Shown here one piece after another: positions 781 to 1,629 of a stretch of 3,964 nucleotides of DNA (positions within the stretch are counted from its first letter, which is position 1; the number at the start of each line of letters is the position of its first letter). Under the pieces are notes generated by a model that was not told the origin of the DNA, did not search any database, and was given only the letters and a program-made list of their open reading frames with translations. The translations under genes were made by a program, and so were the position numbers. Source of the stretch: Escherichia coli (GTDB taxonomy: Bacteria > Pseudomonadota > Gammaproteobacteria > Enterobacterales > Enterobacteriaceae); the NCBI RefSeq assembly GCF_003334385.1, contig NZ_QOWN01000090.1, one strand, 5' to 3'.

Positions 781-849
781 CGATGTCTCCACAAGACACC
801 GATCCTATCAATCTCAAAGACATCCACAATGTTTACCCTTTGTTCTGCT

Positions 850-871
850 GGTCCTCCTTCATTTGAGGACC
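850..871 (+). promoter_or_regulatory. Perfect 7-bp stem hairpin (GGTCCTC, 8-nt loop, GAGGACC) in the leader of the Rha-like gene
   Basis: Inverted repeat 850..856 and 865..871 read directly from the sequence, about 55 nt upstream of the ATG at 925. Function unknown: operator, RNA processing site or attenuator. Confidence 0.3.
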
Positions 872-909
872 TTGGGCAGGTCAGTGGGTTGTGGCTCAGG
901 GTGCAAACA

Positions 910-915
910 AAGGAG
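910..915 (+). promoter_or_regulatory. Shine-Dalgarno sequence AAGGAG for the CDS starting at 925
   Basis: Canonical AAGGAG with a 9-nt spacer to ATG 925. Confidence 0.6.
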
Positions 916-924
916 TACAACGAT

Positions 925-1629
925 ATGGCTCAACAAGTAATTAGCTTTAATAATGAATTCTCAATGTCTTCCTACGAGTTTCTGACCACGATTATCAATC
1001 CAGCCCGTGAAGAAGCAGGGGAGAAACCTGTCCGAAATAATGCCTTTATAGAGCGTGTCCGTGATGAATTGGACGGTTGCCAAAATTTGGTAAGCGATAT
1101 GGTTACACCAGCCGGAGGTGGTACTCCTATGGAAAACGTCATCCTCAATGGCGATCAATTACTTCTGGTCGGTATGCGAGAGTCTAAAGCTGTGCGTCGT
1201 AAGGTTCTGGAGTACATTCGACGAATTGAGAAGGCTAAGCAGTTATTGGAAGACCAGAAGAAACGAGCAGCTATCCAGTCAGCTAACCGTCGTGGCGTAA
1301 CGTGGGGTGATTTCTGTAAGGCCAACGAGCTACCCGCACAGAAACTACTACTTGCGCTCAGGAAGCAGGGACGCCTATTACGCTGGCGCATGGATAATAC
1401 TGTCACGGTTCATCCGCATTTTGCGCAATACTTTCGGATCATCAAATATAATGATGCGAAGTTCAGCTCTACAGGTATCAACTTCAGGTTGAACACCAAG
1501 GGGGTGGAGTTCTTCTCACAACCCGACCGTGTGGCCCGCTTCCGGGAAATCCTTGTTGAGCAATACGGGTCTGATATTGACAAGCAACGTCTATTGCAGT
1601 CGAAAGCGCGGCAGGCTGTAGAGTTATGA
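925..1629 (+). CDS. Phage regulatory protein, Rha / antirepressor-like (Rha-like N-terminus with KilA-C/ANT-like C-terminal domain)
   Basis: ATG at 925 is preceded by AAGGAG. The track ORF 829..1629 starts 32 codons upstream with no ribosome-binding site, so 925 is preferred. The N-terminus (SMSSYEF..VRDEL) resembles the Rha family MSSrEIA..VLRDI pattern. The C-terminus (LLLALRKQGRLLRWRMDNTVTVHPHFAQYFRI..NTKGVEFF) resembles the antirepressor C-terminal domain pattern. Both are recalled from memory, not searched. Confidence 0.7.
   Translation: MAQQVISFNNEFSMSSYEFLTTIINPAREEAGEKPVRNNAFIERVRDELDGCQNLVSDMVTPAGGGTPMENVILNGDQLLLVGMRESKAVRRKVLEYIRRIEKAKQLLEDQKKRAAIQSANRRGVTWGDFCKANELPAQKLLLALRKQGRLLRWRMDNTVTVHPHFAQYFRIIKYNDAKFSSTGINFRLNTKGVEFFSQPDRVARFREILVEQYGSDIDKQRLLQSKARQAVEL

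What the first reader, a model, noticed from the sequence alone, without database searches (positions are those of the whole stretch)
829..925. Track start of the Rha-like ORF is probably wrong; a perfect hairpin sits in the true leader
The track ORF begins at 829, but the only good ribosome-binding site (AAGGAG 910..915) serves ATG 925. The 32-codon upstream extension contains a perfect 7-bp stem with 8-nt loop (850..871). The hairpin may be an RNA processing site, as T7 early transcripts are cut at hairpins, or a binding site.
Basis: seen in the sequence. Interest (0 to 1): 0.3.

Follow-up and report, generated by a model that had tools for sequence, protein, structure and literature searches.

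The report
Conserved leader RNA before mis-started gene
The gene really starts at ATG 925, and the 96 bases wrongly added to it belong to a conserved, folded, untranslated RNA leader that sits in front of many different genes on small E. coli-type islands carrying T7-phage-style promoters; what the fold does has not been tested.

Summary
The start claim holds. RefSeq already starts this CDS at window 925. More than 100 homologues begin at the aligned Met. In 12 of 15 related loci a stop lies 1-11 codons upstream, and only this sequence has an upstream in-frame ATG.

The 7-bp hairpin alone is near chance (3 such hairpins in the window, 2.2 expected). It is, however, the tip of a roughly 80-nt module (829-908) found just before the ribosome-binding site of at least 10 unrelated genes in 39 distinct sequences from several enterobacterial genera and metagenomes. 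The module shows strong compensatory change, is specific to the + strand, and has no Rfam match.

The family-wide fold has an outer helix, an inner helix and a short apical helix. In it the hairpin's 5' arm pairs with a more distal partner.

The window is the right half of a 4.8-kb tRNA-Gly island: integrase, RAZR/PD-T7-4, T7-type promoters, leader and cargo. RNase III-type processing or stabilisation of phage-polymerase transcripts is the best guess. It is plausible from the architecture but untested, and the module has no sequence similarity to T7 RNase III sites.

The parts
925..1629 (+). True CDS of the first cargo gene (234 aa, MAQQVISFNNEF...; stop included)
   Evidence: RefSeq/PGAP CDS WP_048666024.1 in the 100%-identical record starts at L001:6851 = window 925. 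The identical protein P0001 is 234 aa, and 120 listed homologues cover at most 88% of the 266-aa ORF. Met33 is nearly invariant in the N-terminal alignment.
910..915 (+). Shine-Dalgarno AAGGAG serving ATG 925 (9-nt spacing)
   Evidence: Read from the sequence. Each relative has its own SD at the same aligned position in front of a different gene.
829..924 (+). Spurious 32-codon N-terminal extension; in reality the 3' end of a non-coding leader
   Evidence: In-frame stops lie 1-11 codons upstream of the cargo ATG in 12 of 15 related loci. Only the window has an upstream in-frame ATG, and its closest relative L025 has none. ATG 829 sits in the 5' strand of the conserved outer helix.
850..871 (+).
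   Evidence: Conserved: 98.6% of cells paired on the neutral alignment A4 and 98.4% on the A-fitted alignment, with 4 of 7 pairs changed on both sides.
844..880 (+). Model A extended hairpin: lower stem 844-849 with 875-880, 3-nt 3' bulge TTG 872-874, upper stem 850-871
   Evidence: MFE and ensemble of the window. The lower stem pairs in 95.5% of cells on A4. The layout resembles T7 RNase III sites.
829..908 (+). Whole conserved structured module (model B: outer helix 829-839 with 898-908; inner helix 844-854 with 878-888; apical helix 855-858 with 865-868)
   Evidence: RNAalifold consensus. Covariance model R1 matches window 813-930 at 85.4 bits. Over 39 distinct sequences, 92.3% of cells pair, 21 of 26 pairs changed on both sides, 0 of 500 shuffles reach this, and slid controls pair 36-56%. 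Pairing is 94.9% on the + strand against 75.5% on the - strand. In the window itself the outer helix keeps 8 of 11 pairs, and model B is disfavoured by about 13 kcal/mol.
336..924 (+). Inferred untranslated leader, running from the +1 G of the first T7-type promoter to the cargo start
   Evidence: Promoter strings at 319-341 and 429-451. No sigma-70-like promoter and no intrinsic terminator on the + strand of 250-1000. The leader is conserved up to about 915 while the downstream gene differs. That it is transcribed is inferred, not shown.
319..341 (+). T7-class promoter string TAATACGACTCAGTATGGGGAGA (2 mismatches: -5 and -1)
   Evidence: Relatives carry the perfect consensus at the same place.
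429..451 (+). Second T7-class promoter string CAATACGACTCGCTAATGGGAGA (4 mismatches)

Best explanation
Shown. Translation of the first cargo gene starts at ATG 925. Bases 829-924 are not coding. They are the last part of a roughly 480-590-nt leader that begins at T7-type promoter strings placed directly after the RAZR/PD-T7-4 gene on a 4.8-kb tRNA-Gly integrative island. The same module precedes at least 10 unrelated genes in related islands. Its 5' strand has two conserved, mutually exclusive partners. The distal partner gives the family-wide three-helix rod.

Inferred. When a T7-like phage infects, its RNA polymerase transcribes the leader and the cargo. The module then acts as a T7-style processing and stabilising signal. 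Host RNase III, or another double-strand-specific step, cuts the 26-29-bp interrupted rod. This frees the cargo mRNA from the long leader and leaves a defined, structured end next to an accessible RBS, so that any cargo gene placed behind the module is translated reliably.
For: Start site: PGAP start at 925; homologue N-termini; upstream in-frame stops in relatives.

Structure: RNAalifold consensus. Covariation on 16 distinct sequences and on 39 distinct sequences (92.3% paired, 21 of 26 pairs with two-sided change, 0 of 500 shuffles, slid controls 36-56%). Model A is also kept. Strand specificity comes with 91 G.U cells.

Portability: the module was recovered by searches that did not use the hairpin arms. 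These went through the DUF4145 neighbour (module in 7 of 9 loci), through cargo homologues and through a flank-only DNA pattern. The ATG always falls at the same model position, in front of different proteins.

Phage-polymerase context: 1-4 copies of the CACTATAGGGAGA core, with T7-, K11- and T3-like or other specificity regions, lie 150-960 nt upstream on the same strand in nearly all leaders. The neighbour is RAZR, an anti-T7 defence protein (PMC13017515).

RNase III plausibility: genuine T7 sites fold as upper stem, 3-nt 3' loop and lower stem, 22-35 nt before the next gene, and model A repeats that layout. One variant (L033:9363) has a 21-bp contiguous duplex right before its SD. The SD is not consistently sequestered (mean P(unpaired) 0.26-0.86), which fits a processing or insulating role rather than repression.
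Against: There is no experimental evidence of transcription, cleavage or any effect on expression. The module has no sequence similarity to T7 RNase III sites or to any phage genome, and the covariance models find nothing in T7 bases 1-14000. The helices are interrupted, and the 7-bp upper stem alone is shorter than known RNase III substrates. The 3' bulge lies 51-53 nt from the ATG, further than the 22-35 nt seen in T7. The window's own promoters carry 2 and 4 mismatches, and its outer helix has lost 3 of 11 pairs, so this particular copy may be decaying. The covariance-model alignments are fitted to each model, so they cannot decide between registers A and B. The T7 cleavage coordinates were recalled from memory, although the expected hairpins are found there.
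Confidence: 0.4

Rival explanations
1. RBS insulator or 5' stabiliser without RNase III. The module is a self-contained fold that stops the variable upstream leader from pairing with the RBS, and/or protects the mRNA. This lets diverse cargo genes be swapped in behind it.
For: The same module precedes at least 10 different genes at a fixed distance from the SD and ATG. The SD is not systematically paired. The outer helix closes the element a few nt before the SD.
Against: This does not explain why two alternative registers are both conserved. It cannot be told apart from the RNase III model by computation, and the two are compatible.
Confidence: 0.25
2. Bistable RNA switch. The 5' strand toggles between the proximal partner and the distal partner (B). 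The choice could be set by transcription speed (phage versus host polymerase) or by a bound factor, and would gate expression of the cargo.
For: Both registers pair in 92-97% of cells against 35-60% in slid controls. MFE predictions split between them across sequences. The window and L025 favour A by 11-12 bits, while L013 and the divergent clade favour B by about 4-16 bits. Quasi-repeats in the 3' half (GAGTAGG/TCAGTAGG and GGGTGCG/GGGTGCA) provide the two partners.
Against: Neither register sequesters the SD or the AUG, so no output mechanism is apparent. The lower stem of A is weak in the divergent clade (85% even when fitted). Dual pairing could be a by-product of a duplicated 3' segment.
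Confidence: 0.12
3. RNA-level binding site for a protein, such as a phage protein, the island's own DNA/RNA-binding cargo, or RAZR.
For: The structure is conserved and the loop and bulge sequences are partly conserved. The neighbouring gene encodes an RNase (PMC13017515).
Against: Islands without RAZR keep the module (L017, L019, L023, L025, L029). The cargo proteins differ between islands. There is no direct evidence.
Confidence: 0.08
4. DNA-level element: a hairpin recombination site, by analogy with integron attC, used by the island's tyrosine recombinase to exchange cargo cassettes.
For: The module sits exactly where conserved leader gives way to variable cargo. Some islands carry 2-3 modules, each before a different gene. 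A tyrosine recombinase is always present.
Against: 22% of paired cells are G.U, and - strand pairing falls to 75.5%. By inspection there are no attC-type core motifs. The module keeps a fixed orientation and distance to the SD and ATG, and each copy lies downstream of its own promoters. The att site of the island is the tRNA 3' end.
Confidence: 0.05
5. The 266-aa ORF from ATG 829 is real, and the hairpin is just a coding-sequence coincidence.
For: The frame is open from 829 to 925 in this sequence.
Against: There is no SD before 829. PGAP starts the CDS at 925. No homologue conserves the extension. Relatives have stops in this frame. The region evolves by compensatory base-pair changes rather than codon-wise.
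Confidence: 0.02

Closest known systems
RNase III processing sites of phage T7 transcripts (R0.3, R0.5, R1, R1.1, R1.3, R3.8, R4.7; Dunn & Studier, recalled from memory; folds checked)
   Same: An irregular hairpin in an untranslated stretch just upstream of a gene's RBS, on transcripts made from T7-type promoters. The local layout is upper stem, 3-nt loop on the 3' side, then lower stem. Total helical length is about 20-29 bp.
   Different: There is no sequence similarity (T7 consensus CAAGGUC...GGCCUUUAUGAU is absent). The upper stem is 7 bp against 9-10 bp in T7. The bulge is 51-53 nt from the ATG against 22-35 nt. The module has a second, distal register and an enclosing outer helix. It resides on a bacterial island, not in a phage. 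Cleavage is untested.
5'-UTR stabilising or insulating stem-loops, such as the T7 phi10 leader hairpin and the ompA 5' stem-loop (general knowledge)
   Same: A cis-acting structured leader next to the RBS that is compatible with many downstream genes.
   Different: Those elements sit at the very 5' end of the mRNA. This module is about 400-500 nt downstream of the presumed transcription start, unless processing makes it the 5' end.
RAZR / PD-T7-4 defence gene and its integrase association (PMC13017515; PMC9519451)
   Same: The gene directly upstream (window 75-314) is RAZR (padloc E = 2.9e-100). It is known to defend against T7 and T3 and to 'often overlap an integrase gene'.
   Different: In the term searches I ran, neither paper mentions the promoter arrays, the leader, the module or the downstream cargo. 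Some islands carry the module without RAZR.
Small phage-inducible islands and satellites (PICI, PLE, PICMI; e.g. PMC10803314)
   Same: A small integrase-bearing island whose genes appear wired to respond to an infecting virulent phage.
   Different: Here the link to the phage would be through promoters for the phage's own RNA polymerase. No replication, packaging or capsid-remodelling genes were identified, and satellite behaviour is untested.

Membership tests
T7-type RNase III processing signal | Irregular hairpin of about two helical turns with an internal loop or bulge on the 3' side | tested here: met
   Window fold: 7-bp upper stem, 3-nt 3' bulge, 6-bp lower stem, plus 3+4 more pairs. 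The family rod is 26-29 bp. T7 sites folded for comparison.
T7-type RNase III processing signal | Shared sequence consensus of T7-group sites (CAAGGUC...GGCCUUUAUGAU) | tested here: not met
   No similarity by eye. BLAST of 300-930 against 50,697 phage records matches only the promoter. The covariance models have no hit in T7 bases 1-14000.
T7-type RNase III processing signal | Cleavage point 22-35 nt upstream of the next start codon | tested here: inconclusive
   The bulge at 872-874 is 51-53 nt before ATG 925. The 3' end of the outer helix (908) is 17 nt before it.
T7-type RNase III processing signal | Actual cleavage by RNase III | not testable with these tools
   This needs in vitro cleavage or an rnc+/rnc- comparison of 5' ends.
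Any curated Rfam family | Match to a covariance model | tested here: not met
   cmscan of the whole window, both strands, at E <= 1 gives 0 matches.
Intrinsic (rho-independent or T7 class I) terminator | GC-rich hairpin followed by a U run | tested here: not met
   No terminator-like site on the + strand of 250-1000. The hairpin is followed by CUUGGGC.
SD-sequestering translational repressor hairpin | SD or AUG paired in the dominant or conserved fold | tested here: not met
   CTCCTT 854-859 is complementary to AAGGAG, but its pair probability is 0.0 and forcing it costs 8.5 kcal/mol. SD accessibility varies from 0.26 to 0.86 with no consistent occlusion.
Integron attC-like recombination site | Folded single-stranded DNA hairpin with R'/R'' core motifs, structure readable on the recombining strand | tested here: not met
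   No GTTRRRY/RYYYAAC cores by inspection. Pairing is + strand-specific, with 22% G.U cells.
Rha family regulator (for the 'Rha-like ORF') | Recognisable Rha/Ant N-terminal domain | tested here: inconclusive
   Pfam: nothing at E <= 0.001. NCBIfam: none. PHROGs: anti-repressor Ant families at 1.5e-8 to 2e-4. The C-terminal half is shared with a PGAP-named Rha family protein in L004, 37% identity overall.
RAZR/PD-T7-4 integrase island | DUF4145/RAZR gene adjacent to a tyrosine integrase, integrated at a tRNA with att repeats | tested here: met
   padloc PD-T7-4 at 2.9e-100. Integrase and tRNA-Gly lie upstream in L001-L003. A 23-nt attR is at window 2688-2710.

The most novel reading that the evidence does not exclude
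The module is the common 5'-UTR cassette of an undescribed class of mini-islands in Enterobacterales. These islands carry arrays of promoters for the single-subunit RNA polymerases of different T7-like phages (T7, K11, T3-like and others), so their cargo genes are switched on only when such a phage infects. The module's two conserved registers would act as a processing signal or switch that licenses translation of phage-polymerase transcripts. The islands could be a new kind of phage-triggered defence element, or a T7-dependent satellite.
Probability: 0.3. Interest if true: 0.75.

Novelty: new member of a known kind. Interest (0 to 1): 0.42.

Why it matters
The start-codon correction is routine, since RefSeq already has it. 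It does expose a recurring trap: naive ORF callers extend genes into this module in several islands (P0003 and P0054; L037).

The more useful result is that the hairpin marks a conserved, covarying RNA element, absent from Rfam, that precedes many different genes on islands linked to the anti-T7 defence gene RAZR and to arrays of phage-polymerase promoters. If the element controls processing or translation of transcripts made by the invading phage's own polymerase, it would be part of a simple way for a host island to couple gene expression to infection. It would also be a compact, portable leader for T7-type expression systems.

Tried and rejected
1. Rfam scan of the window at E <= 1: no match.

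2. BLAST of the leader against phage genomes: only the promoter matched, so the module is not copied from a sequenced phage.

3. Conserved uORF or leader peptide starting at 829: rejected. The start codon is ATG, GTG or absent, and the stops fall at different places in relatives.

4. Anti-SD pairing of CTCCTT 854-859 with the SD: zero probability, +8.5 kcal/mol.

5. Terminator or host promoter in the leader: none on the + strand.

6. MAFFT alignment with the divergent L019 and L023 (A5) misregistered the paired strands, so I switched to covariance-model alignments. Those are each fitted to their own model and therefore could not separate registers A and B. Bit-score differences and per-sequence MFE folds were used instead.

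7. The T7 GenBank record does not annotate RNase III sites. I used coordinates recalled from Dunn & Studier and checked that the expected hairpins are there.

8. Seven literature searches for phage-polymerase promoters on chromosomal islands or satellites found nothing relevant beyond the RAZR/PD-T7-4 papers. One further search attempt was rejected because a term was too short.

9. The - strand ORF 777-920 (47 aa) has no support and was not pursued.

Full report
OBSERVATION. Every coordinate in the finding is correct. ATG is at 829. A perfect 7-bp stem joins GGTCCTC 850-856 to GAGGACC 865-871 around an 8-nt loop. AAGGAG is at 910-915, and ATG 925 follows 9 nt later, in frame with 829. No purine-rich SD precedes 829.

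The isolated hairpin folds at -12.2 kcal/mol (z = -2.5), and in a 171-nt context its pairs have probability of about 1.0. Such a hairpin is not statistically unusual. The window holds 3 perfect stems of at least 7 bp against 2.2 expected from dinucleotide shuffles, and about 4% of shuffles place one in a given 97-nt span. The 161-nt region as a whole has z = -0.84. The case therefore rests on comparative evidence.

WHERE THE WINDOW COMES FROM. Window 75-3892 is 100% identical to the chromosome of E. coli strain H7. The last ~75 bases at each end of the window (1-77 and 3892-3964) are inverted copies of each other that match IS-element DNA.

In the complete record the order is xdhA, actS, tRNA-Gly, a 535-aa tyrosine integrase, a DUF4145 protein, a roughly 610-bp intergenic region, a 234-aa hypothetical protein, a 158-aa hypothetical protein, ygeQ, and then remnants of the ETT2 type III secretion system. 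The 3' end of tRNA-Gly is repeated as a 23-nt attR at window 2688-2710, so the element is a 4.8-kb integrative island.

The DUF4145 protein is PD-T7-4 (padloc E = 2.9e-100). It has been renamed RAZR and is a zinc-finger HEPN RNase that aborts infection when activated by the T7 or T3 portal proteins or by SECphi27 Gp77 (PMC13017515). The 2022 screen noted only that it 'often overlaps an integrase gene' (PMC9519451). In the term searches I ran, neither paper mentions anything downstream of it.

THE START CODON. PGAP starts the CDS at L001:6851, which is window 925. A search with the 266-aa ORF returned 326 homologues. The identical protein is 234 aa long, and none of the 120 listed covers more than 88% of the query. 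In an N-terminal alignment the homologues start MAQQV or MSQQV at the Met aligned with 925. Two homologues carry unrelated extensions of their own that look like gene-caller artefacts.

Across 15 related loci an in-frame stop lies 1-11 codons upstream of the cargo ATG in 12 of them. Only the window has an in-frame ATG upstream, and its closest relative L025 has none. The extension is therefore an accident of this one sequence. The same over-extension happens to naive ORF calls in other islands (L037 4338 against 4374, and 6002 against 6038).

THE HAIRPIN IN ITS FAMILY. Aligning the leader from three E. coli islands showed conservation up to about window 915 and complete divergence from the SD onward, where a different gene follows in each.

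I then collected islands by three routes that did not use the hairpin arms:
- Through the DUF4145 neighbour in one genome per species: 9 loci in Klebsiella, Buttiauxella, Citrobacter, Enterobacter, Shimwellia and others, of which 7 carry the module.
- Through divergent cargo homologues.
- Through a metagenome DNA pattern anchored only on flanking segments: 36 loci.

The module is always immediately upstream of the SD of the first gene of a transcription unit. It precedes at least 10 unrelated N-termini, and some islands have 2-3 copies, each before a different gene.

TWO REGISTERS. It returned a three-helix rod, which I call model B. In window coordinates the outer helix is 829-839 with 898-908, the inner helix is 844-854 with 878-888, and the apical helix is 855-858 with 865-868.

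- On 16 distinct sequences aligned to a model-B covariance model, 94.9% of cells pair and 13 of 26 pairs changed on both sides. No shuffle out of 500 reaches this, and slid controls pair 37-53%.
- On 39 distinct sequences the figures are 92.3% paired, 21 of 26 pairs changed on both sides, and 0 of 500 shuffles.
It pairs in 97.1% of cells on the neutral MAFFT alignment, although only one pair changed on both sides (T-A to C-G) and it is not significant against shuffles (84 of 500).
- Model A reaches 92.5% on the B-fitted alignment, and its upper stem reaches 98.4% when the alignment is fitted to A.
- Model B's inner helices on the same neutral alignment give 96.9% paired with 3 two-sided changes.

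So the 5' strand CCTGCTGGTCTCC has two conserved partners. They arise from quasi-repeats in the 3' half: GAGTAGG/TCAGTAGG and GGGTGCG/GGGTGCA.

Bit scores of the two covariance models tie for most sequences. The window and L025 favour A by 11-12 bits. L013 and the divergent clade (L019, L023 and about 20 metagenomic modules) favour B by about 4-16 bits. Per-sequence MFE folds split likewise. In the window itself, lineage-specific substitutions make A perfect and leave B about 13 kcal/mol worse.

The pairing is strand-specific: 94.9% on the + strand against 75.5% on the - strand for B, 92.5% against 65.8% for A, and 91 of the 413 model-B cells are G.U. This points to an RNA in the sense of the cargo gene. 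The outer helix is supported under both fits (10 of 11 pairs with two-sided change). ATG 829 lies inside its 5' strand.

PHAGE-POLYMERASE CONTEXT. Five nucleotides after the RAZR stop codon the window has TAATACGACTCAGTATGGGGAGA (319-341), and 110 nt further on CAATACGACTCGCTAATGGGAGA (429-451). These differ from the T7 consensus at 2 and 4 positions. Relatives have perfect T7 promoters at the same sites, and others have K11-type (AATTAGGGCACACTATAGGGAGA), T3-like or further specificity variants. Each leader has 1-4 copies, 150-960 nt upstream of the module, on the same strand. By my estimate about 0.014 such matches per leader would arise by chance. The + strand of the leader has no sigma-70-like promoter and no intrinsic terminator.

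The inference is that the cargo is transcribed by the polymerase of an infecting T7-like phage. This is not shown.

MECHANISM. I folded the T7 regions around the RNase III sites as I recall them from Dunn & Studier. All seven show the classic layout of a 9-10-bp upper stem, a 3-nt loop on the 3' side that contains the cut, and a lower stem, placed 22-35 nt before the next gene. Model A repeats this layout in miniature, with a 7-bp stem, a UUG bulge and a 6-bp stem. Model B plus the outer helix gives a 26-29-bp interrupted rod. One variant (L033:9363) has a 21-bp uninterrupted duplex just before its SD. The SD is not consistently occluded.

I therefore favour a T7-style processing and stabilising element that detaches the cargo mRNA from the long leader and presents a clean RBS (confidence about 0.4). 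The reasons for caution are as follows:
- There is no sequence similarity to T7 sites.
- The bulge lies further from the ATG than in T7.
- The helices are interrupted.
- There are no experimental data.

The rivals are a pure RBS insulator or stabiliser (0.25), a bistable switch exploiting the two registers (0.12), a protein-binding site (0.08), a DNA-level cassette recombination site (0.05, disfavoured by the G.U content and the strand asymmetry) and a real 266-aa protein (0.02).

COMPARISON AND NOVELTY. The module matches no Rfam family and no sequenced phage, and seven literature searches found no description of it or of the promoter arrays. As a cis-acting leader hairpin it is a new member of a known kind. 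The start-codon correction is ordinary.

The wider picture would be more novel, but it lies beyond this finding and is untested. It consists of a mini-island next to RAZR that appears wired to several phage polymerases, with a portable structured leader in front of exchangeable cargo.

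Noticed in passing
window 319-341 and 429-451 (+); L002 4245 and 4354; L007 2793-3370; L008, L010, L013, L033, L044: Arrays of promoter strings for phage single-subunit RNA polymerases sit directly after the RAZR stop codon. They are T7-type in the window (2 and 4 mismatches) and perfect T7, K11-type, T3-like or other specificity variants in relatives. All share the CACTATAGGGAGA core and all point toward the cargo.
   Followed up: partly
window 75-314 (+), continuing upstream in L001 5611-6240: This is the 3' end of RAZR/PD-T7-4, a DUF4145 HEPN abortive-infection RNase active against T7 and T3. The window holds only this 3' end; from base 77 leftward it reads IS-element DNA, whereas strain H7 has the full gene, so the gene may be interrupted in the source strain.
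   Followed up: partly
window 1-77 and 3892-3964: The two ends of the window are inverted copies of an IS end (IS4-like IS421 in one matching genome). The window therefore looks like a contig bounded by two IS copies.
   Followed up: partly
window 2688-2710: A 23-nt direct repeat of the tRNA-Gly 3' end (TTCGATTCCCTTCGCCCGCTCCA) is the attR. It delimits a 4.8-kb island made of integrase, RAZR, leader, the 234-aa gene and the 158-aa gene.
   Followed up: yes
window 412, 547, 643, 654, 663, 705 (and CTTTAAG at 717): Six copies of CTTAAAG occur in the window, all inside the leader and mostly within an AT-rich stretch (640-780). The left end of T7 carries arrays of the related CTAAAG (11 copies at 18-333). 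Two tandem phage promoters followed by AT-rich DNA also recall the layout of the T7 primary replication origin (from memory). These could be replication or packaging signals.
   Followed up: partly
window 499-526 (wider block 483-545): The 28-nt sequence GCATCCTTTCAGGGGCGGGATGACCAAT is invariant in 12 loci besides the window, from several genera and metagenomes. It is far more conserved than its surroundings and is present even in an island that has lost the hairpin module (L012). Its function is unknown.
   Followed up: partly
window 781-801: A second small hairpin (TGTCT/AGACA core) lies about 30 nt upstream of the module. Its pairing is partly kept in L002, L003 and L020.
   Followed up: no
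window 2866-3660, continuing to about 3892: ygeQ is the N-terminal part of a glycoside hydrolase family 15 gene that is cut by an in-frame TGA at 3658-3660. Other strains (L003, L006) have the intact 1611-bp gene.
   Followed up: partly
L033, L037, L044 (metagenome contigs): Larger relatives carry 2-3 copies of the module, each in front of a different gene. In L033 and L044 phage-type promoter strings lie upstream of them.
   Followed up: partly
L017, L019, L023, L025, L029: These islands have the integrase, leader, module and cargo but no RAZR gene. L029 shows a perfect T7-type promoter and L019 and L023 show T3-like strings; no promoter string was found in L017 or L025. The leader and cargo unit is therefore tied to the integrase rather than to RAZR.
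   Followed up: partly
window 1930-2406 (+): The second cargo gene (158 aa, GTG start) has no match in PHROGs, PADLOC or NCBIfam.
   Followed up: partly
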